DNA of 64,000 bases. Source: Saccostrea cucullata (Eukaryota). Shown in pieces: positions 8,251-37,715 of this stretch. The position numbers and the translations under genes were made by a program. The DNA lies in contig NW_026928881.1 of NCBI RefSeq assembly GCF_032062105.1, positions 62,001-126,000 of the forward strand. Direction: 5' to 3'. Under the pieces are notes generated by a model, which worked only from the letters and a program-made list of their open reading frames with translations, was not told the origin of the DNA and did not search any database. Each line of letters starts with the position of its first letter. Within the stretch, counting starts at the first letter, position 1.

Positions 8251-10130
8251 ACATTTATTATAAAGATTTAAATGCATTGTTGTATTACAAAAATAATAAT
8301 ATTGCAAACTTGTTTTAGATAAAATGTTTATAGGATATAAATAAATATACCTTCACCCCCACCCCCCCCCCACCCCCAAACAAAAATACTTACATATATT
8401 TTCAGTAAACTCGTCTGGTATATTATTAAGTTTAAATTTTAATGTAGTTTTCATTCAAAAACGTTAGCAATATGAATATTAAGCCATTACACTATAAACA
8501 CGTTGGAGAATCCCCGACATGTATGCTTTCGTGCACTTTGGACATGTACATTTTATATTTATTTGCATATAATTAAATAAGAACGTAGGAAATGAACATG
8601 TGGCTAGCAATCCCATAGAGGATAACAGTTATATTACTGGAAATAAAGATGACCGCCACCAAAACACAGAAACTCTTTATCGTGTTATTGACGCTTCAGA
8701 GAATTATCTCATTAGAAAAACACAAAAGACTGTGTACATTTATGATGAACGATGAGGAGATTCATGCTCAATATCATCCATTTGATTCAAAAGAGGATGG
8801 AAAAATTCAACCAACACGATTAGTAGACATTTACCCGCAAGACTCAAGGAGTGATATAGCAAATCAAAATATCATAAATGCAAAAATTAATGTATATTCT
8901 TACAAGTAATATTTATGACAATTATTATACATGGAGAATAAGATAGCAACGACTATATATTTAATTTAATTTATCTGATGTTCCATTACAGATTTCCAGT
9001 GATGAGAAGAAAACAATTGTTGATTATACACAAGATTCTTCTGTAATGCCATTTAAAAAGTAAGCATAAGCATGAGTTTTCGTTTATAAACCTTTAGAGT
9101 GTGTCAAATGTTCAAAAATCATTATATAAGACAAGTCTATGTTTTTTCTTTTACTTAAGGAATAATGCCAGGAAGAATGGTCTTAATTCTGAGATTTGCT
9201 TTTTATCAACAGAGGTGAGGCAATAGTGAATTGGATTCCTGCATGTGTTTAGCTTAAATTAAATTAATTCTAAGACTTTTAAATATGTTTAATCATCAAT
9301 TTAGTCTTTTAAAACAATAAAAACATGTATTATAGCCAGTTTCAAGGTGGAATTTTACCCATTCGAAGTATCGTCTCTGATTTAAAAAAAATATGCCTTA
9401 TAATAGTAAAATAGAACATTTCTTGGAAATAATGAAAAAGAAAACACTAATTAAGAATACAAACCCAAAATTATTGGCCAAAAAATCAGATAGAATTAGA
9501 CAACAAAAAAAAATCTTGAGTATACAATCAAAAATATTTACAATAATCTCTTTCCAAATGAAGATAATTTATCCAGAGGAGATTCAGCTTCAAGTAACGA
9601 ACCTGATTGACAGTGATATTATTGCTGATGACGAAGACTATACTGAACACACTGCTAGAGTATCTAACAAGAGATCCTCTTTCTGGCACGTGTTTCTATG
9701 TTGATCATGTTGTTCAACACTGATTTTTCCCCATTGAGAGCCTCAGTCTCAAATGAGATGAAGTTCAAGGTCACGTAATCATAGAAGTTTGTGTCTTTTC
9801 ATAGTTCAGACGCGAGTGATGTTAGAGAATTCTTTTCGGATTTTATTAATCACTTTAATTAAATTTTCCACTGGTTTTGTAGCCAGTGGTTTGTAGCAAT
9901 ATTGCTTGTACAGAACACATGTTCTTTGCGCTTTTCCCATGTGGGAATTGTAGCATTTAGCGTTGCATTCTTTCAACATGTGTTGATAAAGACGTGCAGC
10001 TTTTGATTCAGTGACGTCACTGATGCAGGGGCTGTAGCCCCGTGCGCCATTTAACTTTTACACGCCATGTGGTGTGGAGTTAACGTTAGCGTTTGAGAAT
10101 CTTTTAATCTCTGCATTCTTTCTTGGCGGC

Positions 10131-11312
10131 ATGGCTAATGAGCCGGGACCATCATCGCAAATGCGAGAATCCAGCAGCTATGATCTAGTAGATCAAGTTA
10201 ACGAGGATGCCCCTCGTGACGATAACACGATGCATTCGAAGCAGCATACTGAAAATATGAGTGGTATGTTTGACATTTTCATGCGTAAATTTGCAGATAT
10301 GTCTAAGACCATGACTTCAGTTCAAAAGGAACTTATTGCTTGGAAGTCTGATCGGTCTTCAACGGATACAATTCCGGACGTTTCGAGGAAACGCGGACAG
10401 AATAGATCTAAGAGTACTTCGCCACCTCGCAAGAAAACGAAAACGTCTCAAGCATGTATTCGTCCTTCTCACGAACTTAGTGATAATGATTCTGATGTAG
10501 AAAATTCAGACAAATCGGATGCTGATGAAGCACTTAATTCCCTTATTGAGGGAGATGATAGTTTTCATGATTCGTCAGATGATGATGAGGTTTCTGCTCT
10601 TAATGAACTGTCCGAATTTTTCGGTGATGAAGACAAGACGAGCGAACCGTTAAGTTCTGAGCTGGCAAAGATCATGGAGAAAATGTTCATGACGAAAACT
10701 AACTCGGAGAAAATTAAAGAAATCTCCAACAAGTATGATAGGCCGAAGAACATTAACAACATTTCTGCGCCAAAAGTCAACAAAGTCATTTGGGAAAACA
10801 TGTCATCCAAAAACAGAGCAAGCGATATCAAATTGCAGACTACCCAGAATCTCATAGGAAAAGCCATGATTCCGACATTGAGACTTTTTGACATGCTTAT
10901 TAATTGCAACTCGAAAAAAGGATCAGTTGATGTGAAGAAGGCAAAACAGCTGTGCGGTGACATCCTGAAGTTTCAGAAGTGTGTTTTCCATAATTTGTCC
11001 TACAAGAGGCGGGAACAAATTATCCAGCCAGAGAAAAACAAACAGTTTGTAAGTTTGTGTTCTGCAGAGAGTTTTTCAGAAAATTTATTCGGAGACGACT
11101 TGGGCAGTCAAGTTAAGAATGTGCTTGAAGCAAAGAAACTGGCTCAAAAGATAGGAAATAAAGATTACAGTGGAAAATACAGAATTCCCAAAGTGTCCCA
11201 TTACTCCCATAGCTATGGGAAGAAGCCAAGGTACGGGAACGGAAAAGGGAATTTTTTGGCCAAACAGTTCAGCTTCAACAAGAAAAAGAAGAAAGGAGAG
11301 TCAAATCAGTAG
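10131..11312 (+). CDS. DIRS ORF1 gag-like protein
   Basis: Long intact ORF (ATG 10131, MANEPG...), acidic/basic disordered N-half, KYDRPKN...APKVNKVIW...DIKLQ and LFGDDL motifs typical of DIRS ORF1; lies upstream of RT. Confidence 0.85.
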   Translation: MANEPGPSSQMRESSSYDLVDQVNEDAPRDDNTMHSKQHTENMSGMFDIFMRKFADMSKTMTSVQKELIAWKSDRSSTDTIPDVSRKRGQNRSKSTSPPRKKTKTSQACIRPSHELSDNDSDVENSDKSDADEALNSLIEGDDSFHDSSDDDEVSALNELSEFFGDEDKTSEPLSSELAKIMEKMFMTKTNSEKIKEISNKYDRPKNINNISAPKVNKVIWENMSSKNRASDIKLQTTQNLIGKAMIPTLRLFDMLINCNSKKGSVDVKKAKQLCGDILKFQKCVFHNLSYKRREQIIQPEKNKQFVSLCSAESFSENLFGDDLGSQVKNVLEAKKLAQKIGNKDYSGKYRIPKVSHYSHSYGKKPRYGNGKGNFLAKQFSFNKKKKKGESNQ

Positions 11313-11329
11313 ATTCACATGATGTTAGT

Positions 11330-13423
11330 ATGTCTAATGTTTGTACAATTGTAGATCAATTTGTATTGAAAAACACGCCTGAAAATTTTACTGCAGGCAA
11401 AATCAACAATTTTTTTACATAATTGGTGTACATTAACTCATGATAGTTGGATTCTTGATGTTGTTAAAGGTTACAAGATAGAATTCAAATATGAACCTTT
11501 TCAATTTCACATACCAAATTCGCTAAAATTTTCTGAAAATGAGTATGAAGCAGCTCAAAGAGAAGTAGAAAAATTTTTAAAGAAGGGAATTGTAGAGAGC
11601 GTTCATGAAAATGAGAATTTGTGTGAAAACTCTTTTTATTCAAACATTTTTCTGCGTCCCAAAAAAGATGGGTCTTTTAGAATTATTCTGAATTTAAAGA
11701 ATTTAAATGAGTTTGTTGACAATCATCATTTCAAGATGGAGACATTGAGGTCAGCATTATCTTTAATAAAACCAAATTGTTGGTTTAGCTCACTTGATAT
11801 CAAAGATGCTTATTATTCTGTGAAAATTCATAAATGTAGTAGACAATTCTTAAGATTCAGGTGGGAAAATAAAACGTATCAGTTCACCTGTCTGCCTATG
11901 GGATTAGCCAGTGCTCCACGTATTTTTACTAAAATCATGAAGCCTGTTTTTGCTGAACTTAGGAAATTTGGTCACTTGAATGTAATTTACATAGATGATG
12001 TTTTGTTATTGGGCAACACAAAAGATGAGTGTGAAGTTAATTTAAGAGACACTGTTAAGTCTTTAGATAGTCTAGGATTTACTATTCACCCTGATAAAAC
12101 TCAGTTTTATGCAAGCCAGAATGTTGTCTTTCTGGGATTTTTATTAGATTCGGTTACAGTGACGGTTAGACTTACACCAGAGAAAGCTCAATCTATTAAA
12201 GAATTTTGTGATATGGTTTTGAATCAAAATAAAGTGACAATTAAACAGGTTGCACAGCTTGTAGGCATGTTTGTAGCCTCTGAACCAGGGGTGGAATATG
12301 CCAGACTTTATTATAAGACCTTAGAAATTGAAAAAGATTTGGCTTTAAAACTTAATCGAGGCAATTTTGAAGCCCATATGACAATTTCTCATCAGAGTAG
12401 GATACTGCTAAACTGGTGGTCTCTTAATGTGTGTAAATCCTTTAAACCATTAACTAGAAAAACCCCAAAATTCATTTTCAAAAGTGATAGTTCAAAGTTT
12501 GGATGGGGTGGAGTGAATGAAGATTCAGGTGAAGCAATTAGTGGATTATGGGACAATAATATTTGTGAGGCACACATTAACTATTTAGAGCTTTTAGCTG
12601 GATTTTACACTCTAAAAGGATTGGGAGAAAATATTTCAGATTCCCATATTAGACTGTGTATGGACAATTCAGTAGCCGTGTCATATGTTAATAAGCAAGG
12701 GGGCAAGATTTCAAGATTGAATGAACTAGCTCGTGAATTATGGACTTGGTGCATAGATAGGAACATCTGGCTTAGTGCTGAACATGTCCAGGGTGCAACA
12801 AACATTATAGCCGATTCGTTATCTTGCAAAAATGTAGATATGGAATGGAAGTTAGATGAAGTGGTTTTTGATAAACTGACAAATTTGTGTGGAAAATGTG
12901 AAATAGATTTATTCGCATCAAAGGACAACCATCAGTTAAATAAATATTATTCATATACACCAGACCCAAATGCATTAGGAGTTGATGCCTTTGCACATTC
13001 TTGGAGAAATATTGACTGTTATTTATTTCCTCCTTTTAGTGTCATAAGCAGTGTCTTGAAGAAGATCGAGGAGGAGGAAGTGCAGTTTGCTCTGTTGATA
13101 GCTCCAGTGTGGAAGACGCAGCCATGGTTTCCGCAGCTGATGCATCAAGTTGCAGGTCCGTGTTTTCTTCTTCCGAAAACAGAGACTCTCTTGAAATTGC
13201 CAAAGATCCAAAACGACGACATCCCTTGACAAAGATGAAGATAGCTGCATTCAGTTTGTCCGGCAATGCTTGTTCAGTAGAGAATTATCAGGAGAAACTG
13301 TCAATATTATCTGCAGATCATGGCGGGAATCCACAAAAAGACAATATAGAGGTTATCAGCAAAAATGGTTGCAGTTTTGTTGTGAAAAACAGAGTGATCC
13401 ATTTAAAACAGATGTTAATTTAG
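11330..13423 (+). CDS. DIRS pol: reverse transcriptase, RNase H, DNA adenine methyltransferase-like domain (frameshifted near 11411-11416 and ~13203)
   Basis: RT: KKDGSFRIILNLK, LDIKDAY, LPMGLASAPRIF, YIDD. RNaseH: SDSSKFGWG, HINYLELLA, DNSVAV, NIIADSLS. MT: IDLFAS, DAF..SW, YLFPPF, PVWKTQPWFP. The C-terminal HPL...LSG lies in a shifted frame. Confidence 0.9.
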
Positions 13424-14155
13424 TTTTAGAATTTCTTACAAATTTGTATATGAAAAATCTTGGTTACAGTGCTTTGAACACGGCAAGATGCTCATTAAGT
13501 TCATTTTTGTCTCTTTCTGATCACTCGAGTGAGAAAATAGGTGATCATATATTAGTTAAACGTTTTATGAAGGGTGTATTTTTGTCAAGACCAACTTTAC
13601 CCAAATATCATTTTACATGGGATGTAAATAAGGTTTTAGGATATCTTAAGACATTGTCTCCTGTGCAGGATTTGTCTTTGTTTCAATCATTTTACATGGG
13701 ATGTAAATAAGGTTTTAGGATATCTTAAAACATTGTCTCCTGTGCAGGATTTGTCTTTGTTTCAATTGTCAAAGAAATTGGCAATGTTGTTAGCTTTATT
13801 ATCTGGACAGCGAAAACAAGGTTTACATCTTCTAGATGTTAGAAATGTTCTGTGAGAGATAATATGTTAATCATTAAATATGGTGACTTGTTAAAGCAAA
13901 CAAGACCAGGGCATCATTTAGATGAAATATCTGTTGCTGCTTATCCAAATGATATAGATTTATGTATTGTACATGTATATGAGGAATATATTCATAGAAC
14001 TAAAAAATTGAGGGGCTCAGAATGTAAATTGTTTATAAGTACCCAAAAGCCTCACAATCCAATTTCTGTAGATACCATTGGTCGCTGGATCAAATCAGTT
14101 ATGACAAATGCTGGAATAGACATGAACTGTTTTTCCCCGCATAGTACACGATCAG
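13270..14155 (+). pseudogene. DIRS tyrosine recombinase, disrupted and truncated
   Basis: SWRESTKRQY, YSALNTARCSLS, RPTLPKY..TWDV, LSGQR, LKQTRPG, TIGRWIK and HSTRSA are present. A 79-bp duplication shifts the frame and the C-terminus with the catalytic Tyr is missing. Confidence 0.9.
13608..13765 (+). repeat. 79-bp tandem duplication inside YR
   Basis: tcattttacatgggatg...tttgtttcaa occurs twice with one mismatch. Confidence 0.95.
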
Positions 14156-17100
14156 CACTGATTATAAGTGCATATTTAGTTTTCATGTACTTAATAGGTG
14201 CTGTACATCTTGGATGGTTTGTATACTGCGTATCTGAAACAACTTATATTCATAGCAACTCCATTGAGGTTTTTTTTTTATTGCATTTTACTTTTTAAAA
14301 AAGGAAACCCTATTCATAAGAAAAAAGTTGGAATATTCAGAGAATTCGGAAGTTTTTCAGGAGGAATCAAAGCTGCATGAATTCATGTGAAATTTTAAAA
14401 AAGCAATCAAGAAATAATTTGTAATTTACATTTGTTAATAAAAGTATATTTTATCACTGTATCATTGTTGTGAACCAAAAAGCATTATAGAGAAACAAGA
14501 GACGATAGCCGCCTGAGATTTCTTTCATGCATGATCTCTTAATATGTCTAACTCAGGCATATGTAAAATTAAGCTCTGGGCAAAAATACCAAAAAAGACA
14601 TGAAATTACAAACTGTGAGAATATTCATTGTTGTTTCTTTTAAAATCACTCTGTCTCTCAGAAGTAGTAGAGTAAGGATGATATTTATAATGTGATGATT
14701 TTTTTCTTCAATTTCATTAAACTGTAGCCCCAGCCTACAGAACCATACATTTGTTCAATTTCTCTAATTTTCGTTTCGTTACAATGAATGAATAATCTCT
14801 GATTGAACCTTGCCAAGTGATTGTGCCTTAATATTAGACATTCATAAAATGAAAAGTTATCATAAGTATACTTACTTACACTTAAAAATTATGAATAATT
14901 ATCAACAAATAAGGAAACATTTAAATGACATTTCAAATCTTATCCTATTTCTTAAAATAATAAAAACTGGAGGAAAATGTGCAAATTCTGCATAGACATT
15001 TGATATTTTAAAAACATTTTTCCCCAAAATAAAAAAAAATGAATAATCTTCTTACCATAATGAATGTAATATGACGATTTTTTTTATTTCTGAGGGAAAT
15101 GCTTAAAATGTGAAGGACACATGGAATTCTGACTGAATTCTAAAACTACTTTGTCATTCTTGGTCAAAGATTGAGATTGGAAGACCCAAGACATACTGAG
15201 TAAATTCTAGTGTTTATATATTTTGTCATTTTTAATTATTCGCCAATCTTCATTAGTTTAAGAATCACAATACTCTAAATTCAATTTTGCATCTATCACA
15301 TCTTTTAAGATCTAATGTCAATTTGGTTTGTAAGAGACGAATAATACAAGTGATTTTTATTCATACAGAAAACGAACACAATGAATTTTAATGTCTGATA
15401 TTATTTTTTCCGATAAAAGATTATAAATGATCGTATTCAAATAGAAGATAAACTCAAGAAAGTCATATATACTCATTTACTTATCAGTAGAAACATCGGT
15501 TGATGCATATTTCCATATCTGTGTTAACTTTAGCATAAGATTTATCTTGGTATTTTAAAATATTTTCACTTGACAGTGTTTATGACTACACCTTTTTTGT
15601 CGTATTCATATGTAAAAATTATTAATTAGTCATGTCAATATGTAATTCAAATTTATATCTAAAATGGTCCAATGGGCCTGGTGCAAATGGATTGATTAAA
15701 TTCATTCATGACACTTCAGAAAATGATTATTTATCTTTTAACAGGTTTGATATCTAAGGTTTTTGGTTTACCATGAAAAACTGTCACAAAATTGAAAAAA
15801 AATTATGTCATTTTCTGATTCAATTTTAGCCTGCTGTGGTTGGAAAGATATCTTTATTTGAAAATTTTGGATGTGTATTTTAATTTTTTTTATTCAACAG
15901 ATATAAAAGGTGCCCTGCTATAATTTTTACATTTATTTGCAAATAATTCAATTCGATTTGGTGATTTGTTTTTAGCTTTTAAACAATTTCAATTTCCTCG
16001 TTTAAAGTTCGTAAGTTGCATTTTGTTCAAATGGCCTTATCTTCAAATATATCATAACATTAAATAGTTTTTTTGCTAACGTGTTTTATACCAATTGTAA
16101 TGTCATTTGTTTTCATACCAAATTTGACTCGAAACATTCCGTCTACCCTTTTAACACATAAGAATACTGGCGAGCGTAACCGATCAACAGGGGTTAATGT
16201 TTCATGCCCTGTTCACGGAGTTGTATTGTGTGTTGATTTTTTTTAAAAATATGGATCAAGTTCATTACTTTCTTCTTCTTCTTCTACAAGATAAAAATAC
16301 TTGTTCATCATACTTAGGAATCGTAGCAACTGCATGATATATTTTGAATAGCAAATATATGTAGATTGGTTTAAAGTTTTAAAAAAAAATTAATTTGAAA
16401 AATGATAAAGCACAAAACCCCAAGAATTAATTGACAGAAAAAATATGTCATTAGTGTCATTATTTTATATGTATGCCAAATAAAGTTTAAAAACTTAAAC
16501 AAAAGTATGATGTTCTCTCCTGTAAACTGCATCTTAATTACAAAATTAAAATTCTAGTCTCATGAGCTACAAATGTAGAGATTCCTGTTAACACAATTTA
16601 ATGTCAGACAAGATTTTTTTAAAGGAGAAATTACATAACTTATCTCTCTTTCTTTTGAGTTTTTATAGCATTCTTTGCCTACAATTGCATACATAATAGA
16701 AATGAGAAAAGAATACATATGAAATTGTTTGATAGGGTTTCGGTAGAATATTACTAGGATCTTAAGAAAAAATATTCTTGAGATAACCATATGGCACACC
16801 GAAATGCACAAAAAGTCCAAAATGGCAGCTGCAGTCCTTCAACCAATGTGCATTAAGGAATACTTTATCATCTTTGCACTTTTTGTATTAAAGAGAACCA
16901 TGCAGTCTTACTTTTTGTTCAATGAAATATTATAAGGGAAATGTCATCTTGAACCACCAAACTTAATTTAAAGATAAAACTTCATAACATAGTGGAAAAT
17001 CCTATCGTAGGACAACCTGCAATCTCTGGGGGAAAAGTCATGCCTTAGGTTATGGTTATTTTTCAAAAAAATGTACACTTCAGACTTCTGTGGAACCTTT

Positions 17101-18048: not shown

Positions 18049-19076
18049 GACATTATCATATTTTACGTAACTGCTAATCAAAGCTTGTGAATCTGATCCC
18101 CTTCTTGTTTGTTAAATTGTTCACATTTATACCGTCATTTTAATAAATGACATTATTCATCTCTATGAAAGTGTTTTATTTGACTTGTACAAAATAGCAA
18201 AAACAAGCTGCGGTGAGCTTGCCTATAAGCATAAGAATACATAAAGGTAATTGAGGAAATACCTTACTTACAATTAATTATAAATACATATGAATTAAGC
18301 ATGGTTAAAGAAATGTCTTTTTATTTTATTTATTAGATATATTAAAGCGAATTTCACATATTATTCATACTTGAAGCAAAAAATCAAATAATGTGGAGGC
18401 GTTTGAATACATGTAAATATAATTATTTGTATATTAGCGAATAGTAATTTGATGAATGAACCTCTTGTTTGGATAGCTCCAGCAAAACGTTAGTACATCT
18501 TCGAGGTCAATTTGCTGCCATAAAAGTCATAAAAAAAAATGTTTTTAAAGAGTTTCTGTTATGAAGACAATTTTTGAAAGCCTTTATTTCTTAATGATAG
18601 CTATATTTTCAAACTAACGAGTTACGTTTTTCAAGTCACACAAGAAATTTTTCGTTCCATCTTAAAGAGAACAAAAAATCTGAGACAAAAATTCTCAACT
18701 TTTATTGCAGCACACTGTATGCTATATTTTAGAAGCACATTCATTATGCATATACATAAGATATAAATGTATAAGAGTATACATAAACTTCTTTAAATAT
18801 AACAGCATTATTCTTTTCAAGTAAAGACAATTTTCCCCATTTACACTAAATTGCATCTTTTCAAATATCGGCATTCGAATGTCTACTATGTTTAGCACCC
18901 CTGAACAAGCAAACCGAACATTGTCTCATATGCAGCACAGCTTGGTCCCTGTCTTGTACGGCACCTCTTACACACTACATTTGTTCTTGAAGCAGCCTCT
19001 TTCTCTGCTAGTGATGAGAGATTAAATGCTTTGAATCCCTGCGCTTTGTTTTTGGAGTTTGGGATAACGACGTTTT

Positions 19077-20909
19077 TCATGACTTCATTCGACGACTGTA
19101 TTCATCCAGGAATGGACGAGGAATCGGAGAAGGTTGTGGCAAATGGAACTTATAGATGTCGTTATTGTTATTCATGATGTGAGATTTGTGTGCTTTTGTC
19201 AACGAAAAAGCTTTCTCTTTGTATGGAACACAGACCGAGTAAGTGTTCCTAGTGTGTTGGCAACAGGACATGTAAGAATCGCAGTCAATATCACTCTTGC
19301 ATTCTCTATTCGCAGAAGAAATGACGTAATGTGTGACGCATGTCCCTGATTGCGTCATCTTTGTGATATGTCTGGCTGCAAGAAAAAGAAATCTGGTAAA
19401 GAATATGAAAAAGAAGGTAGGTTTCATAAGCCTTTATTAAATCATGACTTCTGAATTGTTCAGTTCCATGCATACAAACTGCATTCTCATGAAACCTTCT
19501 AAATGCAATTGTGTATGCTTGAACTTGTACATCTATCTTATCGAAGTTGCAGAAAACAAATTCTTTCAGATAATATAGACCACATTGCATCGCCCATTGC
19601 CCAAAGAGATTTAAAGCAATGTCTGTTTACCAATTCAACAAACTAATGATGCCGTATTTCCAAAACTGTCTTCTTTATTACTGCAATATTCATTCACGAT
19701 TTATCACAGTATTTCATGACTCTGAAAACGTCCAGTTTAAAGGACATACATATGTACTGTTGCCAAAACTGTAAATTTCTGTATATTTCAATTTTCTAAG
19801 TAGTTATGCAATATATAAATATTTTTAAATTCTTTATTGCCCATATGTCTCATATCTCTCTATTTTTGAGCACACTGTTGCATTAATATTCTCTCTGTAA
19901 ATTTAAGCCGCCATAAATTTAAGAATGTGTTAAAGGAATGCCTTTTATAAATGAATAAGGTTAATTATTTGTTACACCTTGTAACAGAAACAATATATTA
20001 TCTATCATAGTCACTGAGGTAAACCAACTTCGTTTTTTAGCGACTTTTGATCATAACGTGATCTCCAGCGATACATCACAAACAATGTTGATTGATTCAA
20101 AGATCTTTAACATTTAACAGGTTAATGACTTCTAATTTATGTCAACTTCGATGGTGTTTTTGCGAGGAGAGTAATTTATCATGCATAACAAAACATTTGT
20201 TTAATTAAATTTTTCTTTTGTTAATTTTTAAATATTTGTGGTTAGTTTAAGACATATTCCAATACTGCTATATCAGATGATTTTGGAGGGTTACTTTTAA
20301 TTTAATGTGTTTGGCATACTGTACTCTACAAAATTTAGAATTTTCAATTAAATTGGTCATATATACAAATTTGTTGAACTTGAAAAATTCTAAATTTCTT
20401 AGAGGACAATACAATTACTTTGCCGGATTACAGATTATATTGGACCTTCCAATCATTTTATAAAAAAATTCTGAATATGCCAAGAAATAATGGTATGTAT
20501 TAAGATTTGTTGCTATTCCATGTCATTTTGGCAAGTTCTTTAAATAAAATACATTTCTCCAAGAGTATTAGAGATTAAGTTACTATTTTGTGATATGCGT
20601 GTATTTGTAACCAAGTTAGAAATTTAAGGTTTGAGGAAGATTTTGCATCAAATCCTTTGCTCATTAAGAAAAAAGTTGTAGAAAAATACAATATGCTTGT
20701 CTCATAGTTGAAATTAACTTGAAAAACATGCAAATATTTTCTGGAAAATATTTTCTATTATAAGAAATCTCTGGAAACGTCATTGGAATAAAGATACTGC
20801 AGTGAAGATAAAAAAAAAGAGCTGATGCCCCTTCAATTTAAGTTTTTTTCAAGTCCTCACCTTCTAAGAGACCAAAGCAGGCAAGAAGTACACACAAAAT
20901 CCAACTCAT
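19077..20909 (-). CDS. Secreted 6-Cys WAP-like / Pro-rich protein A (exons 20909-20861, 19375-19077; possibly extends to 18892)
   Basis: A 49-nt signal-peptide exon MSWILCVLLACFGLLE ends G|GTGAG (phase 1) and joins in frame to acceptor ttcttgcag|CCAGACAT. C-x12-C-x5-C-x5-CC-x9-C-VP, PSPIPRP; TATATA about 140 bp upstream of the ATG. Confidence 0.82.
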
Positions 20910-21799
20910 GATTTTGGAATGGAAATGTCTGCAAAGCTCGTAGTGTTGATTTGATTCAACTTTTCCTCAAATCTTGATTTTCCAAGAAGCAACCTAATCA
21001 CTTGTTAAACAGCGTTGAACTGAAGCGCCTGTCATGTAGGAGCCTTGTATATAGTCCTCGGTGACAACAGGAAGTCCCGTACAATGACATTTCAATTAAA
21101 AATGTGTTCTCGAGTTTCATCAAAACAAATGTCAACATTTTTAATTAATTCATCTGAAGCTATAAATTATTAACAACAGTTCCCAATGGTTACACATCTA
21201 ATTATCCCCGCTCTTAATGTTTTTTGTTTGTTCTTCGAGTCAAAGGCTCTTGTAAAATTTGAACCACAAACCACGAAAAAAGGTTGATAACATTTTACAA
21301 ACAGTTCAATTTTACGGTCAATCATTTAGTGATCGGGCGAATTAGCTTTGTTAATGTTTAGGCTTTATTGTGATTCACAATTTTCGAACTGTCACATTGA
21401 CAGGTTTACAGGTGTAGAGAATCTAGTGATGGTACTACGGGGTTGTTAATTAAATGAGTGCTCAGGGAAAAACCCTACTGATAATTTAATTTGCAAATAT
21501 TATGGAGTAGTTCAGTACAAATTTAAGACACATATTTTGACTGTGTCCTATGCTTAGGTAGATTTTGAGATTTATGTAATATATATCGTTTTCAATATTC
21601 GTAAGTTAAGATCTATATACCAATTAATTTACAGACAGTTTATTGTCAAATTTTCTGAAGAAGAAATCCTTTGCTTTCGAATTTACTCTAGACATTAATA
21701 TTAATCCATTAAACACAGAGAATAAAACATAATAGATGAAGTGTCTTAAAAATTTAAAATCATCATTAAAATGATCATTTTTTTGTTTTGGCTTCTGGA

Positions 21800-22100
21800 T
21801 TTGGGGTTGGTTTGTTGGATGGTTGCTGGCCTTACGTCTCCTAGCATTTTTCATTCATCTTGAGACTTCACCAATTGCTGATGGAGTGCTAAAAATTAAG
21901 ACTTGTCCTTGGTCGTTGTGGCAATTATGACTTTTTTCTTGCCAATATCTACTGCAACATGTACCTTAGTTACATGTACAGTCTCATCCGAAGGAACGTT
22001 CTCTGTGACCAGAAGTGGAATTCGAACCCGAAATACAAGGATTCAGTTCTTCCTTCACCATTCAGAACAATTACTCTAATCACTGCAGCGCGCGGGTCAC
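21800..22100 (-). mobile_element. Degenerate tRNA-SINE copy
   Basis: gtctcatccgaaggaac...gtggaattcgaacccg matches the family. Confidence 0.7.
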
Positions 22101-22144
22101 TCAGAAATTTGGTCTTGGAAAAATTATCTTAGCTCAGCGGTTTT

Positions 22145-22448
22145 GGTTTTGTTTGTTTGTATATACTATAGTTTAACGTCTTTGTCGATAATTTTTTAAT
22201 CAATGGATTCTCCACCATCTGCGGGGGAGAGCTGCAAATTTTGTGCTTTACATCTCGGCACTAAAAGCCTTTGAGTGAGGAATCTTTTTCGTGCCACCAC
22301 TTTCTGCAAAACGGGACCTCACTTATTAACGGTCTCGTCCGAAGAACTGGTCTCCATCTCCCACAATGGGATTCGAAGCCGCGACCTAAGGATCAACTCC
22401 TTCCGTCACGACACTAGAGCAGATGCTCTAACTACTGCGCCACGCGGG
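22145..22448 (-). mobile_element. Near full-length tRNA-SINE copy
   Basis: On the minus strand: head CCCGCGTGGCGCAGTAGTTAGAGC (A-box), B-box-like TTCGAATCCC, core and (aaac)n tail. Confidence 0.85.
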
Positions 22449-22997
22449 TTTTGGTAGATTTTTAGTATTATAGTCGTCAGATTTTTTTTTTTTTGAAAAC
22501 AGGTTTCTTGATTCTTAACTATTAGAAAAACACTTGTTATAAGTTTACTGTTATTATACACTGTACCAATACTAATTTTGAACGTATAAATTACTGTAAA
22601 TAGAAAACTGAAAAATATGCAGGTGCAAGCTTTCACACTGCATACATTTTATAGATATTTTGCTCTTGATTTCAGTACATCACTACGACATCAAGACATA
22701 TGTTTTAGCAGAATTACCCCACCTTAAATATTTGCATAATGTGCATGTATTTCTATTACCAAAATTTTAATTTGCATAATTATGTACAATGTTCTGCAAC
22801 ATTTTTATCCAATGTTAAATGACAAATTACACGATTACAATTTTATGCTACACCGGAGAGGTTTTATTGTCCTTGAGACTATTTCACCTTGTTTTGCTAT
22901 TTATATTCTTGAAATGAACAAGAATTTTCATTTCAATAGCTGGTTGTTGGTTGTAGCTATTCTTAAATGTTGTGAAATAAGAATCGAACGTTTCACC

Positions 22998-23575
22998 TTT
23001 TTATGCTCTCGTAATCGAAGTTTGGGAGTTCACAGGTATGCTCTGTCCGTACGTCTGTCTATCCGTCTGTTTGTCGGCAAAAATATTAACCTAGCCCATA
23101 TCTTAAATTTAATTTGGTGGAGCTAGAAATTTCATATAAATTTCACAGTGACAAGACCTAAAATAGGGTATCACAGCATTTAACCTCTTTACCTGGACCT
23201 TAGGGTTTCACCCACTTTTGCTGTAAAATCACCATACTTTAATCTTGGCTTTAACTGTTGAACGTTTGATTTCTAGGGATGTCATACTTCAATGTCTATT
23301 TCTTGTCACAAGACCTTTCCATAAGATTAAAGGCTTAAGATATTTTGACCTTGGAGTTTGACCAACTTTCAAAAACTTTTACCTTTGGCATTGGCCAGAA
23401 CTTTGGAATGATTGGTGCTTGAGCTTTCACGAGTATAGCCGGTACTCATTAAGACAAGTCATTTCTCTGGGTATCAACATTTTTGACCTTGGAGTTTGAC
23501 TTTTATTTGAGAAGCTTAATCATTCGCTATCAGCTGCCACAAGGGGGCTTCAGTATTTCACGAACACATCTTGTT
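22998..23575 (+). mobile_element. Degenerate Helentron-type non-autonomous element (HINE)
   Basis: 5' ttttatgct...gtccgt/ctgt microsatellite, internal gacaagacct/tttgaccttggagtttgac repeats, 3' end cacatcttgtt. Confidence 0.65.
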
Positions 23576-24360
23576 TATTCGTGCCCCTAGTACAGCAAAA
23601 ATTGGTGGAATTTAATGCAACTTTACATGAAGAATATTTCAATTCTTGAGCACACTTTCGTGATTCTGTACTTCTAAGATGTTTTCACAATCAACCGTTT
23701 GGCAAATACTGTTAATAAAGATGACAAAAAGATTTGCGTTGCTGATTAACATTTGATACATGTAACACTGTTTGATTCTTTTATGATCTTGCAGCAAAAA
23801 GTACAAATTTTAAATTTCTTTAACACATCGAAAAATTCAAGTAGAGTTCATTGCTGTAATTCGTGCTTCGTTGTAATTTCTAACATCACAAGGAAACAAG
23901 GAAAAAAAATTAATGTTCAGAAAAACATAAAATATATATTGTAACCCAGGTGTAATTAAATGTTATCCATTTAACGAATAAAAATAGCTAGAGATCTATC
24001 TTAGGGCTCCTGAATGCGATGATTAAACCGTATACAATTTCTGCCAAACACAATGGGCCGCACTTTGACGCGTTGACGTATTTCACATACTAGTAAATCC
24101 CCTCGACGTTAAAAAACCACAGTCTCTTGACACATCATATCCTTGAAAATGTCCGATGTAAAAACACACTTTAACTTTTAAAATAGAATTCACATTTTTT
24201 CAAGTACCTTCAAGTCTTATGAGGATATACATACCATCATCATGACTTTCAAATTGTCCATCACACATGTCTCCAGAAATCTTAAGGTATTCCGATGCAT
24301 ATTCGTTTTAAAAGTAATCTATTCACGATTAAGTCCTTCTTTGGTTCTTTAAGTTACATA

Positions 24361-24875
24361 TCACTTATAAACAATATTCGTAGGAGCATAGATATAATTT
24401 GGAGGCGACACGGAGGTGAACGAAGCAAGAAGAGGGATGGGAATAGGGCGGGGTATGGGTAGCGGTAATGTCGACTCCCCCGGGGGTCGTGACCTCGGGG
24501 GATACTGCACGATGACAATGTCTGTAGGTCTAAGAGGAACACATATTGATTGCTCCGATGATCGAATTCTACAACACACAGATGAAATGTCACAGTCTGA
24601 GTTACTTTTACACATTGTCGATATAGACACAAAATTAAATGCGTTCGCACAGTTCCCCGAATTTGTTAGTCTCTGTACTCCATTGATATAACGACCTGTG
24701 AAAAGAAAATCAATCAAGTTTTAATTTAACAGGATAACAGATCTTTTTTTTTAACCAGAGTTTTTAAACTTTAAAAATCAAATATTCTCGAATTTGTTTT
24801 TAAAATGTCATTGATTATCGGCGTACCTGTTACTGTTCCCAGGACGCTGAATAAAATAAAGTTTTCCCAAATCAT
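24361..24875 (-). CDS. Secreted 6-Cys WAP-like / Pro-rich protein B (exons 24875-24827, 24695-24361)
   Basis: A 49-nt signal exon MIWENFILFSVLGTVT ends CAG|GTACG (phase 1); acceptor ttttcacag|GTCGTTAT. Same Cys spacing as protein A; tail PPRSRPP...PLPIPRPIPIP. Confidence 0.85.
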
Positions 24876-26694
24876 TTCTAAAATCAAAAATACGTTAAAT
24901 TGAAAATAAAAATTTGTAAACAATAATAATGCTTATATTGTATATAACTATTTACGTGTATAAATTAAAAATATATTAGTACCTACTGATCAGAAATCAA
25001 TTTCAAATATTTCATGACCAAACCTACGGATCAATTAAATTTAAAAGCTATGTTTTAGCAGTTTTATATGATGACGGCTCATCATGTTTTCATTTTCTTT
25101 TACAAGGAAGTTTTATTACCATTATGTCAAAAGGTTAGTACTATGATAATTGATAATAATTAATTTCGTTAATCAAAGGGGTGAATTTTGGGAAAACTTG
25201 TACTTTTATGGCTGGAAAATATGAAACGAACCCGAAAATTACCTCAAAGTTCCCAGCAGACCATTCATAGGTTTTGTTTTTTGACAAGAGACATTAATGA
25301 AATCTATTAAGATAAAGGTAAAATAACTTATGGGATCTGTGTGACATCTCCGTGTTAGTGGAAAGTCTGATTAGCGGACGCTTAGAAATCATTTGAAAAA
25401 AGCCCGAATTTGCTGTAATTTATATACATCATTTGATTTACTTAATTTAATTACCTTGTAGTAAATTACCTTGTAGTAAATTAACTCATTTATTAATTCA
25501 ACTAATGAATATTTGTTATTGATATTAAGCAAGTAAGATTAGACAGCATAATCAACTCGGCTCATATTTTTATTTCATGTCATTCACAAATTCTATGTTT
25601 CGAGTGTATTTGCCGTCAAGGAAGTCTGTTTGCCTTCTTAACAAATTTCGATTCTTTGAAGCAAAATTAAGAATATATTGAACCACACAGAAAGAGGCTG
25701 ATTAAAGGTTCTCCAAAACCTCTTTGATCGGTGCAAAAACAGAAAAACTTGTATCATAGAATATTTCAACACAAGAGGTTACCCAAGAAAAGATGCGAAA
25801 TAGCTGAATGAAGATGTTACAAATTGGCCAGACGTTCACAGATTTTGCGTGTACGAATGCTTTGGATGCTGTTACTAATCAGGTTAAAACTGTTATGTAA
25901 TTATTAGTCCATGTAACCATAATTGGATTCTGTCTCTAGGAAGGAGCTACCCTTTCGACCCATGACCCTTCATGTTTTTTTTCTTTTTGGCTTAGTGTGA
26001 CATACATTGTCCAGTCATTCTTTTTTACGAATCTCTTTATGTAGCTTTTTTTTTTTTAACTTATATGAATAGAATGAATGTATTTCCTTGATGTAAAGTA
26101 TATGTAACTGTTTAGTTAATTGTGTGAAAAATATATATATAAAATATTTTCACTTACCTGAATTATTCTCGTTGGCCTAGTGTCAAAAGCTGAATCAGAA
26201 CTGAAGTATATATACTTGTGTGTATGGAATATGATAGACATTTGCTATCAATCTTGAAAATTGCTTCCTCTACGTTATGTTTTCTATCTATTACCAAATT
26301 TTTGCCACGCATGGTCACTAATTTTGATAAATTAAGCCTTGTCCATTATAAAAATTATATATTAAAAGCTTCGGTTGCTATGTGTGTCTTCGTTGTTATC
26401 GGGAAGAAAAGTTTGAGGTTCTCTGCTTCTTTGCATCGTATTGAGTTTCAACATTAAAGACTACGGCCATTCTAAGGAAATATGACACCTTGTTGCCACT
26501 TGTGCTTTAAAGAATATATGAAGAATATATTAATACATCTCTCACTGGTAACTATAAGTACATTTGGAATATTTTTAATGCCCAATGCCCCCAAATAATA
26601 ATCCTAAAAAATCAGTATTCACTTATGATGTGCCACCGCTTGTGGCAGGGGCTAGAGCTTTTGCTCTATACAAGGCTTGATATTTATGTTGCCT

Positions 26695-29605: not shown

Positions 29606-32600
29606 TTATTCTGTCAGCCTGGTGTAATCTAGCTCAGAGTCCCTTTTCTTTTTTTGTTGATTTTTGAAACAGCACACGGCTACAAGAATGCCAGTAACAC
29701 AGAGACAGACAAGCCCAACACTGATCCCAATCTTCAAATACAACACTGTAATTAAAAAAAAAATCAATTGGGTTAATGATATGATAGTTGATGTCACTGT
29801 GAAAGTATTCTGGATATCTGGAGAAGACGGTAGAAAAGCAGAAGGAAAATAGCTCGTGTTTGGCAGGAGAGATACGTGGATAAGAACGAGAAGGCAGGTA
29901 TACAGAAGGGTTTGGAAAGAGGAAGAACATATCCGGACAGATATATGTAGTTGTGGTTCTGCAGAAGAATGCACGTGATGGGACAAATACATGTAGCTAA
30001 GTTCCGATAAATGTTCAATGGTTGGTGCCAAGACTTTCATGTCTCACATGACACATGTATTTCGTGTAAACCGTTTTTTAGGTTCAGTATGTCCTAATGA
30101 CTTTGACCTTGGGGTTTGACCTGCATTTTTAAAAACTTGAACCTTGTCTATAGCTCCTGGGCTTTCATATTTATTTATGCATTCCTTGTGACAAGACCTT
30201 TACATTGGTACTATTTTTTCCTTATGTATATGATCCTAGACCTCCCTGAATGGCAGGCACTAGGGTTATTTTTGTTCATATGTGTATTCCTTGTGACTAA
30301 TCCTTTCATGTACTCTGTATCCTGTAACATATGTCGGTGCTCTGTTTGACATAAATGAAAACGCAAAGTTGGAATTTAATGGTCATTTATATATATAATA
30401 AATGACAAAGCAACCAAAATATGTCAAAACATAGTATTATTGACATTACCAAACACAATTAAACATATTATGTAATAGAAACAACTGCATATAACTAAAA
30501 AAAAACCATACTAAAATCGTAAGTTCACAATTTTTAACCTTTGAATTCACCTACATTTAGATAAACTTGCTCTTTGGTTTTTTGTATAATTATGTGTTTA
30601 ACAAGCACATCTTGTTCTTTAATTGTTGGGAACACAATAAGTAAAATTTAGTAATAAATTGAGAAAGCAGCATAAAATGCGGAGAAACATGTATATAACA
30701 AGCGTGTGCTCGTTATGTGTGCAGTAAATATATACACTTTTTTCAATGCTCTCTGTTCGATAATCCTTTTATTTCCAGACCAATGAGCTACATATCTACA
30801 GCTACGTCAAAACATATTTGGTTTGGAGATGTGAATTTGATCAAACGAAGGGAAGTCCTTTATATTTTTTAAAATATGTAAATGGTGTAAATTCAATGAA
30901 AATATCCTCTAAAATCATGGTGTCCGAAAAATAAGTACTAGTATATGAGAAGTTCCTTTATACATCTTTAGTGTATTCAAATTTATCTGAATGACGGCCC
31001 CTAGGGCCAGAAAAGGGGCACACAAGGATGCCAAAATTTCAACATTTGAATAGGCATTTTTATCAGAAAAACAACGCTACATTTAAAATTACTGCAGATT
31101 ACGAAAGTAGCTGTTAAATAAGACCGTTGACTTTTTTTTCATGAAGGAGAGAGGGTCAATACAGGTTAGATTTTATTTTGTAATTATTACGATCTTTATT
31201 ACATACGCCAGAGAAGACCTGATCCATTACGTACTGCTGTACTATTGTAATCTTTATAAATTCATTACATGCAAAATTTTAATTGTTTCATTGCAAGGCT
31301 CCTACTTTGGTAACAGGTTTAAAGGCATTTGACAGTTAATGAATGTGTCAAAGTGCTGTGTCTGTTCATGTAAATTTATACTTAATTTCTAATAAACATT
31401 TATTTTTCAATTGCTTATGCAGATTTAATTGAAAGTTCTCTTGTTAAACTAGTTATTTGGCAAGTTCTGTCATAAGTAAGGCACTTGGTTGCATTTTTTT
31501 TGTGATTAGTTATCTTGTACACGCAATTAAACGGTAGATATTATCATATTTAATAGTTTTCATAAAGTTTAAGAAATGAATGGGGATTTCGGTTGTTACA
31601 AAAGACGGCCAGTCAGTTAAATTAGAACTCTTCACTGATTCTTTAATTGCCTGTCAAGACTGCGGTGATAAACTTTTCTGACAGATTTAAAAAGATATAA
31701 AAACTGCATACATTTTACTTCACGTATCCACCTTGAGCACAAACTGATAAATCATCCTAAGTGAATGTTTGAAAGACTTTGAATACTTACCTCTCAAAGA
31801 AAATTTCTTTGAAGAAGTTAATTGTAAACTTGAACTGCAACAGCAGATTGGATAATCAAAACATGCAACGTTTTACTTCTTAATTTTGAATTAGTGAAAG
31901 AAAATATTACCTATTCTAAATGTTACTTATATTTGACAAAAAATACATGGTACTTTGAAATTATCTTGTTTTGTTCAATTGATATTGGGTATATCTAAAA
32001 AAATATTAATATTGAGGATGGTATCTATGTAAGTCAATGAATCTTGAGGATGGTGTTTTACTAAAGAAGACATGGATAAGAGTTAAGCAGGAATTATTGA
32101 AGCTGACTAGAGAAATACTAGAGAGATTGAGGGAGATGTTGATAATTCTGATAATATTAAGAAGGATATGGGTAAGTCTGTAACGTGTGTAAATCTTGGA
32201 ATATTGAAGAATAGGTTGGTAATGTTAGGAACATAAAGAGGATGTGGATTATTCTGAAAATACGTACATGTATATGAAGGATGGCGGGGTAATAAAAGAA
32301 ATTTCAAGGATCCTGCATGATGTACGTAATTCTGGGAATAGAGAGATGGTTTGCGTTGTTTTTGGAATATTTAAGATGACCCGAAACTTGAGTAATTATA
32401 GAAATGATGAAGTAAACAGGGTAATGAATAATAAAATCGTAAGTATTACCAACATGTATTCAAGGATAAAATTAAAACAGTTGCTCTTACATGTGTTTTT
32501 CTTTTGTGCTGTTACCAGAATTTTGAATGAGGATGTGTTGAAAGAGTTTAGATTCGCTCCCATGAGGTCGATATTGGCAATCTGATTGTTTTCTGCGCAC

Positions 32601-36632: not shown

Positions 36633-37715
36633 TCAACCAACTCCACCCCCATCTTTTTGTTCGGAAGCTTTGTTTTTGCCGAGATTTGAGAGGAATTTAT
36701 TTGCGCTTCTCTTGACTGCAATGGCGGGAACGATCGACTGATCTCGGGCAATTCGTATGCTTGCTTTCTGCTTAGTCGCCATCTTCATCATAGAATGTAA
36801 ATTATCTTTTGTTTTATTTTGACAAAATTTATCAAAAGCCCGCTCCAGCTCACTCTTGTCAAGGGAAAGTTTTGTGCTCTTTTTTGCTACAAGCGGTTGT
36901 TGCTTTTTCCCATTGTTCTTATTGAAAGGATTGTACGCAAATCGCTGCTTAGCTCGAAAATTTAAAGTATATCCTGTGGGACGTTTGTTGAAATTGTCTT
37001 GTTCGTTTACAAATGTTTTCACTTTTTGCTGAAGTCTTGCATAGTTAATCTTTTCGAACAAAATTTCGCTGTTTCGTTCTTCTTCGTCTGTATCTTCAAA
37101 TCTGACGGATTTTCCTTGCATCTGAGTTGTTCCTGTTGTCAGGTACCTCGGAGATTCAATTCTACTGGTTGGATGAATCCCCGTGAAATATGGCAACGTG
37201 ACAGATGACTTAACGCTATTTCTTGAGGAAGACACAGTATGGAATGGTTCGGATACGGAACCCTTCCTTCCACCTATTTGTTCACTGTTAAGATTATTGC
37301 CCTTCATGTCCATGTTTTGAACTTCAGTCAAAAAGAATTCCGATTGCTTTTGCATCACGTCACCTAATATAGGTGGCGCTGATTTCCCGCGTTTAGTATT
37401 AATGTCGGGAATTGTATGGCACCGAGTATCTGTGGGATCGCTCTTAGCAGACGACAAACGTTTGAAAGCTATCTCCGATTTTCTCTGAAGAATTGCGTTT
37501 TTCTTTCTTTCCATCATTCTTTTCTCTATGTTTATGTTTTTAACCATGGTGTCCCTTTCTTTATCGTAAATCTGTTTAACTGTGCTGCACCTTGTTGACA
37601 AAGCTTTGTGTTTACTTGCAAGCAGTTGCGCATGGAGAGGTGCAAGCATCATCTCGACATTGATCGTGTGGTCCTGCCATGTCAGGTCGTGAGTCTTGAG
37701 CATCAACAGCGCCAT
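36633..37715 (-). CDS. Uncharacterised 360-aa protein, paralog 1 (N-terminal coiled coil, disordered middle, RVxF-like KSVRF)
   Basis: Long ORF in AT-rich DNA with a splice acceptor 7 nt before the ATG; homologous to 52476-53597 (KTxDLTWQD, SAPP, VRF, FNKR, AFDxFC). Confidence 0.88.
   Translation of the reverse strand: MALLMLKTHDLTWQDHTINVEMMLAPLHAQLLASKHKALSTRCSTVKQIYDKERDTMVKNINIEKRMMERKKNAILQRKSEIAFKRLSSAKSDPTDTRCHTIPDINTKRGKSAPPILGDVMQKQSEFFLTEVQNMDMKGNNLNSEQIGGRKGSVSEPFHTVSSSRNSVKSSVTLPYFTGIHPTSRIESPRYLTTGTTQMQGKSVRFEDTDEEERNSEILFEKINYARLQQKVKTFVNEQDNFNKRPTGYTLNFRAKQRFAYNPFNKNNGKKQQPLVAKKSTKLSLDKSELERAFDKFCQNKTKDNLHSMMKMATKQKASIRIARDQSIVPAIAVKRSANKFLSNLGKNKASEQKDGGGVG

What the first reader, a model, noticed from the sequence alone, without database searches (positions are those of the whole stretch)
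19077..24875. Tandem pair of secreted 6-Cys WAP-like + Pro-rich (PIPRP) proteins: candidate undescribed defence or shell-matrix family
Seen: both genes have a 49-nt phase-1 signal-peptide exon and the identical spacing SGxC-x12-CKSxxDC-x5-CC-x9-CVP, while the inter-Cys residues have diverged; both carry a Pro-rich tail containing PIPRP. Established: the WAP four-disulfide core has 8 Cys with CxxDxDC..CC; WAP plus Pro/Arg-rich regions occur in type III crustins, and WAP domains in molluscan shell proteins (perlwapin, lustrin). Inference: this is a three-disulfide WAP variant missing the C2-C7 pair. Fixed Cys with divergent loops suggests a fast-evolving secreted effector (antimicrobial, protease inhibitor or biomineralisation).
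Basis: partly seen in the sequence, partly recalled or inferred. Interest (0 to 1): 0.72.

Follow-up and report, generated by a model that had tools for sequence, protein, structure and literature searches.

The report
Oyster six-cysteine WAP gene pair
Two neighbouring oyster genes encode small, likely secreted proteins with a six-cysteine version of the WAP domain, a version already described in whipworms, plus a short conserved proline rod; they likely act as binding parts of an extracellular secretion rather than as antimicrobial peptides.

Summary
The gene pair is real. Both minus-strand genes have a 49-nt phase-1 first exon and one C-x12-C-x5-C-x5-CC-x9-C domain. Gene A equals RefSeq XP_062617295.1 of Saccostrea cucullata; Magallana orthologues are labelled 'WAP domain-containing'. 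Gene B was found only as unnamed ORFs in sequence collections. The B-then-A order appears kept in Magallana. Pfam WAP is the best family (A 21.5 bits, cut-off 20.8; B 15.5), consistent with loss of the C2-C7 pair; structure models could not separate WAP from knottin/Dickkopf hairpins. The six-Cys WAP is not new: it is described in Trichuris and Trichinella, and 9 of the 30 best WAP loci in this genome have it. SG, CKS and PIPRP are not family motifs. The real shared motif is L-P-x-P-x-P-I-P-x-P-x-L. Loops differ between the two old paralogues (6 of 31 identical) but are kept among orthologues, and charge is not conserved, which argues against a fast-evolving cationic antimicrobial. No expression data were available. 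Best guess (0.4): a secreted matrix or mucus binding protein. Side result: six-Cys WAP, called a trichocephalid adaptation in 2014, is abundant in an oyster.

The parts
24827..24875 (-). Gene B exon 1 (49 nt, ATG, hydrophobic signal-peptide-like stretch, phase-1 GT donor)
   Evidence: splicing inferred from sequence, no spliced record found
24361..24695 (-). Gene B exon 2 (six-Cys domain, x-Pro rod, Tyr-containing end, stop); protein 127 aa; no annotated protein returned for it
   Evidence: homologous ORFs 47-49% identical, all unnamed Logan/ENA ORFs
24541..24651 (-). Gene B six-Cys WAP-like domain C-x12-C-x5-C-x5-CC-x9-C
   Evidence: Pfam WAP 15.5 bits, E 0.021, below cut-off
24427..24462 (-). 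Gene B conserved tail motif L-P-x-P-x-P-I-P-x-P-x-L (predicted polyproline-II rod)
20861..20909 (-). Gene A exon 1 (49 nt, ATG, signal-peptide-like, phase-1 GT donor)
   Evidence: joined frame identical to XP_062617295.1
19077..19375 (-). Gene A exon 2 (LOC134279000); protein 115 aa
19230..19340 (-). Gene A six-Cys WAP-like domain
   Evidence: Pfam WAP 21.5 bits, above the 20.8 cut-off
19107..19142 (-). Gene A conserved tail motif L-P-x-P-x-P-I-P-x-P-x-L

Best explanation
Two tandem paralogous oyster genes encode small, likely secreted proteins with a six-cysteine WAP-like domain and a conserved x-Pro rod, which likely work as binding components of an extracellular secretion (mantle, foot or mucus matrix). 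Shown: gene models, tandem pair, orthologues, motif conservation. Inferred: the domain would fold as a WAP core held by C1-C6, C3-C5 and C4-C8; without the C2-C7 bond that anchors the inhibitory loop, it would serve as a protease-resistant surface whose loops, different in A and B but kept within each, bind different partners. The shared hydrophobic x-Pro rod would form a polyproline-II helix that docks both proteins on the same matrix partner.
For: Gene A is a RefSeq model with spliced orthologues; one Logan ORF (P0033) carries signal peptide joined to exon 2, as from a spliced transcript. The ten family domains form one clade (96/91) with A and B subclades (98/90), each holding the window gene and more distant oyster sequences. 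The N-terminus of Magallana model K1PKY7 matches, 38 of 39 residues, the sequence read just past the stop of B-type ORFs, so B lies upstream of A there too (inference). Outside the cysteines, paralogues share 2 of 31 loop positions but 8 of 12 tail-motif positions in all 11 aligned rows, so the tail is the common constraint. No Met is conserved in the C1-C3 loop, where WAP inhibitors usually carry one near Cys2 (PMC9680087, passage). Net charge is 0 to +8 with an acidic or neutral domain. The same genome uses 'six-Cys WAP plus low-complexity tail' in a larger family with Gly/Val/Tyr tails. In a mussel atlas, Pfam WAP is enriched in foot and mantle rim (PMC5549309, passages).
Against: No expression, localisation or binding data at all. 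The A tail motif and accessions were not found in the supplements searched for four Magallana shell or larval-adhesive proteomes; the WAP entries listed there are 126-184 kDa proteins, so a shell-matrix role has no direct support. Evidence for WAP beyond the cysteines is modest (A: 15, 5 and 1 of 300 Cys-fixed shuffles reach the real score against three WAP profiles; B: 24, 20, 0; P0090: 110, 107, 40). Disulfide pairing is inferred, not seen. Gene B has no spliced record.
Confidence: 0.4

Rival explanations
1. Secreted serine-protease inhibitors (elafin/SLPI-like, MEROPS I17) that protect a secretion from proteolysis; A and B would block different proteases through their different C1-C3 loops.
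For: WAP is the only Pfam family matched by all 10 of 10 aligned members; paralogue-specific conserved loops fit different targets; Trichuris six-Cys WAPs are filed as SLPI-like inhibitors (PMC5012510, passage); elafin and SLPI appear among weak fold matches.
Against: The contact loop lies around Cys2 and usually has a Met (PMC9680087, passage); Cys2, its partner Cys7 and a conserved Met are all absent. The Trichuris paper states that the effect of the six-Cys change on function is unknown. Does not explain the conserved tail.
Confidence: 0.2
2. Antimicrobial or membrane-active defence proteins, like type III crustins or proline-rich peptides, or pore formers like the Trichuris WAP repeats.
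For: The window proteins are cationic (mature net +6 and +5, pI about 9.1); WAP plus Pro/Arg region is antibacterial in SWD crustins (PMC9680087, passage); Trichuris TT52/TT95 made pores in bilayers (PMC6130879, passage).
Against: Charge is not conserved (Magallana A net 0 with no Arg in the tail; B orthologues 0 to +3); Pro region is C-terminal, not N-terminal; one copy of each gene was found in this genome and loop polymorphism is low, unlike the expanded, hypervariable oyster antimicrobial families (recalled).
Confidence: 0.13
3. The domain is not a WAP descendant but a knottin or Dickkopf/prokineticin-type disulfide hairpin, acting as a signalling or reproductive ligand for a cell-surface receptor.
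For: The confident core of both models aligns best, though insignificantly, to knottins, Dkk1 and MIT1 (rmsd 0.9-1.6 over about 29 residues, E about 1 or worse); the domain ends C-x-P as in those families, not C-x-x-P as in most WAPs, and lacks the G/K residues before the CC (sequence); Atlas rank 2 is a cystine-knot cluster at 0.79.
Against: No Dickkopf, prokineticin, colipase or toxin Pfam family was reported for either window protein at E up to 10; Atlas rank 1 is a WAP cluster (0.86, 175 shared features; a lead only); unmistakable six-Cys WAPs in this genome have near-identical spacing, one exactly 12-5-5-9.
Confidence: 0.17
4. Gene A is real but gene B is a decaying duplicate or unexpressed ORF.
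For: No annotated protein was returned for B within 61-195 aa; no spliced record seen.
Against: B's frame, six cysteines, tail motif and stop position are kept in at least four diverged sequence types at 14-16 of 31 loop identities to the window; splice sites are intact.
Confidence: 0.05

Closest known systems
Six-cysteine WAP (SLPI-like) proteins of Trichuris and Trichinella (Tm-WAP, TT52, TT95; PMC5012510, PMC6130879)
   Same: Six Cys with spacing 12/13-5-5-7 against 12-5-5-9 here, i.e. the same pair missing; a T. suis protein was the best non-oyster hit of the family profile (E 7.5e-5); secreted.
   Different: Whipworm proteins hold 1 to many tandem WAP repeats with a clear KPGxCP start; the oyster proteins have one degenerate domain plus an x-Pro tail; the tree does not join them.
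Canonical WAP four-disulfide core proteins (elafin, SLPI, omwaprin, perlwapin)
   Same: Pfam PF00095 match; C-x5-C-x5-CC core with acidic residues; small secreted format.
   Different: Six Cys, not eight; no Cys2/Cys7, no conserved Met in the contact loop; perlwapin has three WAP domains (PMC3374290, passage).
Type III crustins (SWD)
   Same: Signal peptide, single WAP, a Pro-containing region.
   Different: SWDs have an N-terminal Pro/Arg region and a C-terminal WAP (PMC9680087, passage); here the order is reversed, the WAP has six Cys and Arg is not conserved.
Double six-Cys WAP, Gly-tailed proteins of the same oyster genome (L015-L053; no published name found)
   Same: Six-Cys WAP followed by a low-complexity tail; spacing up to identical.
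   Different: Two domains, intact KPG/KYG-x-C-P starts, Gly/Val/Tyr tails, many clustered copies; separate clades in the tree.

Membership tests
WAP four-disulfide core (canonical WFDC) | Eight cysteines, four disulfides | tested here: not met
   Six Cys in all 11 aligned rows
WAP four-disulfide core (canonical WFDC) | Pfam PF00095 score above the gathering cut-off | tested here: inconclusive
   A 21.5 bits passes 20.8; B 15.5 does not; 10 of 10 members match at E up to 1
WAP four-disulfide core (canonical WFDC) | WAP fold | tested here: inconclusive
   Models have mean pLDDT 55.5 and 59.9; no match at E <= 0.001 or Z >= 5; omwaprin Z 2.1, rmsd 3.0 over 31, tied with knottins
Six-Cys WAP variant (Trichuris type) | Exactly six Cys, with the C2 and C7 positions empty | tested here: met
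   Spacing 12-5-5-9; all Cys columns align with the genome's six-Cys WAP profile over 40 columns, HH probability 49.7%, E 1.7e-4
Six-Cys WAP variant (Trichuris type) | WAP-like residues besides the cysteines | tested here: inconclusive
   Real score above most Cys-fixed shuffles for 9 of 10 domains on the two oyster profiles (0-24 of 300 reach it); P0090 shows none
Six-Cys WAP variant (Trichuris type) | Disulfides C1-C6, C3-C5, C4-C8 | not testable with these tools
   Model coordinates are not returned; needs mass spectrometry or NMR
Elafin/SLPI-type inhibitor (MEROPS I17) | Contact loop around Cys2, usually with Met | tested here: not met
   No Cys2 and no conserved Met in the C1-C3 loop (feature from PMC9680087)
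Elafin/SLPI-type inhibitor (MEROPS I17) | Measured protease inhibition | not testable with these tools
   Bench assay
Type III crustin (SWD) | N-terminal Pro/Arg region and C-terminal eight-Cys WAP | tested here: not met
   Order reversed, six Cys, 0-5 Arg in the tail
Oyster shell-matrix protein | Peptides in shell proteomes or mantle-specific expression | tested here: inconclusive
   No hit in the supplements held as text, which may be partial; no RNA run was listed
Knottin / Dickkopf / prokineticin hairpin | Family profile or significant fold match | tested here: inconclusive
   No Pfam match reported; fold rows at Z 2.0-3.5 only

The most novel reading that the evidence does not exclude
Loss of the C2-C7 bond is a recurrent switch, reached in whipworms and several times in oysters, that turns the WAP inhibitor scaffold into a binding or membrane-active module; this oyster pair couples it to an undescribed extracellular polyproline docking tag, kept unchanged while everything else diverged, and is the smallest natural test case for the open question of what six-Cys WAPs do.
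Probability: 0.15. Interest if true: 0.6.

Novelty: new variant of a known kind. Interest (0 to 1): 0.3.

Why it matters
Modestly. The whipworm genome paper called the six-Cys WAP an apparently novel trichocephalid adaptation and left its function open (PMC5012510). An oyster with dozens of such domains shows that it is not confined to that lineage, and a single-domain 11-12 kDa protein is an easy object for disulfide mapping and inhibition assays. Gene B also looks like a conserved gene missed by annotation. Without functional data it remains one more lineage-restricted secreted mollusc family.

Tried and rejected
Expression: no RNA holder was listed for 19000-25000; no reads could be laid; this is no evidence either way. 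Structure: two AlphaFold models were low in confidence; Foldseek gave no match at E <= 0.001 and VIA-align none at Z >= 5. PDB sequence search gave only chance rows. Atlas search with B gave a 0.75 hit without family. Longer fused forms: none at E <= 10 among 7993 candidates of 425-2000 aa, weak evidence; lengths between the two ranges were not searched. More paralogues in the own genome: protein searches with B and A and a DNA search with B returned only the pair; weak rows L003, L058-L060 held no family domain; these searches are lower bounds. A rival prokineticin profile could not be built: only two weak own-genome matches, not used. Metagenome scan gave one locus with only the A tail at the contig edge, so no DNA for dN/dS or direct synteny. 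The P0091 cluster (15 ORFs listed) lacks Pro, His, Thr and Ala, as expected from C-to-T converted reads, and was dropped. C-terminal extensions of Logan ORFs look like TGA read-through and were ignored. Two mis-delimited six-Cys domains were dropped before the tree. My first exon coordinates were two bases off and were corrected. TATA-like and AATAAA sites are not counted, as the DNA is AT-rich. Paper searches for gene ids, accessions and two short motifs found 0 papers; keyword searches listed no paper describing this family or six-Cys WAPs in bivalves, judged from listings. Earlier-findings look-ups were empty. No complex prediction was sent, as no binding partner is claimed.
Full report
Observation. 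The window is AT-rich animal DNA. A search for ATG, a 49-nt exon, GT and an in-frame AG gives gene A as 20909-20861 joined to 19375-19077, 115 aa, and gene B as 24875-24827 joined to 24695-24361, 127 aa, with 3451 nt between B's stop and A's ATG. Gene A's product is identical to RefSeq XP_062617295.1, LOC134279000 of Saccostrea cucullata, so the window comes from this rock oyster or a very near relative. The two genes share no meaningful DNA similarity and about 28-30% protein identity.

Relatives. A has orthologues in S. echinata (80%) and Magallana gigas and M. angulata (44-46%); UniProt labels several 'WAP domain-containing protein'. B returned 8 of 8 candidates at 47-49%, all unnamed Logan ORFs, none from NCBI or UniRef. 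A profile of 10 sequences against 1.84 billion representatives found 11 proteins at E <= 0.001: nine of the family (one a conversion artefact), a Trichuris suis WAP-repeat protein (7.5e-5) and one unrelated-looking Cys-repeat protein (9.2e-4). All named family members are oysters. One Logan ORF, P0033, has the signal peptide continuous with exon 2 while genomic ORFs show an acceptor-like stretch there, which indicates splicing of the A orthologue. The false first exon of Magallana model K1PKY7 matches the stretch read just past B's stop (38 of 39 residues; 22 of 23 high-scoring rows are B-type), so B precedes A in Magallana too (inference). In a tree of 68 domains with only 48 columns, the 10 family domains form one group (96/91) split into A and B (98/90); deeper forks are open. 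The duplication therefore likely predates the split of these oyster genera.

What is conserved. In 11 aligned rows the invariant columns are six Cys, one Asp, one Ser, the Pro after the last Cys, and eight of twelve positions of the tail motif L-P-x-P-x-P-I-P-x-P-x-L. SG, CKS and PIPRP are not family features: among 42 A-type and 39 B-type redundant database ORFs they occur in 2 and 0, 1 and 38, 2 and 22 (after dropping 15 converted-read ORFs), and PIPRP sits four residues apart in the two window genes. Of 31 inter-Cys positions, A and B of the window share 6; window A shares 12-24 with four A orthologues and window B 14-16 with four B orthologues; 37 Magallana-type A ORFs vary at 5 positions, mostly conservatively. 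This is the pattern of two old, separately constrained paralogues, not of a hypervariable effector. I could not compare rates with neighbouring genes or compute dN/dS. Mature net charge runs from 0 to +8, the domain from -5 to +1.

Is it a WAP? Pfam WAP is the best family: A 21.5 bits, over the 20.8 cut-off, B 15.5; 10 of 10 aligned members match at E <= 1, other families at most 1 of 10. The own genome has 70 PF00095 matches from 74 candidates. Of the 30 best loci, 9 have six Cys with the usual KPG/KYG-x-C-P start and no C2 or C7. With 20 further stretches that I chose from lower-scoring matches, 50 loci hold 33 distinct six-Cys and 20 distinct eight-Cys domains; this ratio is biased by my choice and may include haplotype copies; one domain has exactly the 12-5-5-9 spacing. 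Profile-profile comparison aligns the family with this six-Cys set over 40 columns (49.7%), with the eight-Cys set over 19 (50.5%) and with Trichuris over 24 (34.2%). Against Cys-fixed shuffles the extra signal is modest. Two AlphaFold models are confident only in the hairpin core and the tail, and fold searches give tied, insignificant rows for knottins, Dkk1, MIT1, squash inhibitors, omwaprin, elafin and SLPI. So WAP descent is probable, about 0.8 in my judgement, and not proven. The pairing C1-C6, C2-C7, C3-C5, C4-C8 is recalled from elafin, not from a call.

What is known. Foth et al. 2014 (PMC5012510, passages) report that nearly all WAP domains of Trichuris and Trichinella have exactly six Cys, call this an apparently novel trichocephalid adaptation and say its functional effect is unknown. 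Briggs et al. 2018 (PMC6130879, passages) describe Tm-WAP repeats with six conserved Cys and pore formation by TT52/TT95. PMC9778506 (passages) added nothing on this. The crustin review (PMC9680087, passages) places the inhibitory contact region around Cys2, usually with Met, and defines type III crustins by an N-terminal Pro/Arg region and a C-terminal WAP. WAP domains occur in calcitic shells (PMC5854119, passages and supplement rows) and limpet shell (PMC3374290, passages), and are enriched in mussel foot and mantle rim (PMC5549309, passages). A preprint (10.1101/2023.01.19.524809, passages; its supplements were not seen and may list this gene) states that WAP protein function in Crassostrea is unknown. 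Supplement searches in PMC5854119, PMC11464482, PMC8382897, PMC5379566, PMC6193008 and PMC6231486 (supplement text only for the last five) found neither the accessions nor, where searched, the tail motif; the Magallana WAP entries in the two shell lists are 126-184 kDa. Old CGI identifiers for these genes were not known to me, so lists keyed by them could hide a hit. Ten library searches listed no description of this family; subscription papers are not covered.

How it most likely works. Shown: two intact, conserved, single-copy-as-found genes with hydrophobic first exons, a six-Cys module and a fixed x-Pro motif 25-35 residues behind it. Inferred: secretion; a three-disulfide WAP core that has lost the bond fixing the inhibitory loop and so serves as a stable binding surface; a polyproline-II rod that docks both paralogues to one partner in a secretion such as mucus, periostracum or cement. 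I give this 0.4, a non-WAP ligand 0.17, a protease inhibitor 0.2, an antimicrobial or membrane-active role 0.13, B non-functional 0.05. No functional evidence was obtained, and the shell proteomes searched give no support.

Verdict. A real, apparently undescribed oyster-restricted gene pair, but built on a WAP variant that is in print and common in this genome. New variant of a known kind; interest 0.3.

Noticed in passing
G000 contigs C16569, C11830, C12426, C2917, C4932 (L015, L018, L020, L023-L025, L027, L030, L033, L036, L044-L053): A large clustered family of proteins with two six-Cys WAP domains and a Gly/Val/Tyr-rich tail, often ending in basic residues plus Tyr, which recalls shematrin-type shell proteins (recalled, not tested). 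Some copies carry stops or frameshifts. It shows that six-Cys WAP is not confined to whipworms and may deserve its own look.
   Followed up: partly
L035, L037, L039, L041: Further single six-Cys WAP-like domains on other contigs, in separate branches of the tree, hinting at repeated loss of the C2-C7 pair; deep forks are unresolved.
   Followed up: partly
window 10038-14295 (+): DIRS-like retroelement: gag-like ORF, reverse transcriptase with Dam-like methyltransferase domain, and a tyrosine-recombinase region in pieces.
   Followed up: partly
window 36636-37748 (-) and 52479-53597 (-): A second pair of paralogous long single-frame ORFs (371 and 373 aa, 27% identical, E 1e-30) with no Pfam match, alike mainly at both ends.
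   Followed up: partly
window 54690-56471 (-): BTB-BACK-Kelch gene in one open frame.
   Followed up: partly
window 29609-30043 (-): Open frame holding a likely transmembrane exon followed by a basic stretch; no Pfam match.
   Followed up: no
P0011 (UniProt K1PKY7): This Magallana model likely has a false first exon taken from the sequence just behind gene B's stop.
   Followed up: yes
Atlas rank 1 for P0030: A cluster of 97-aa WAP proteins labelled as from large DNA viruses scored 0.86; a lead only.
   Followed up: no
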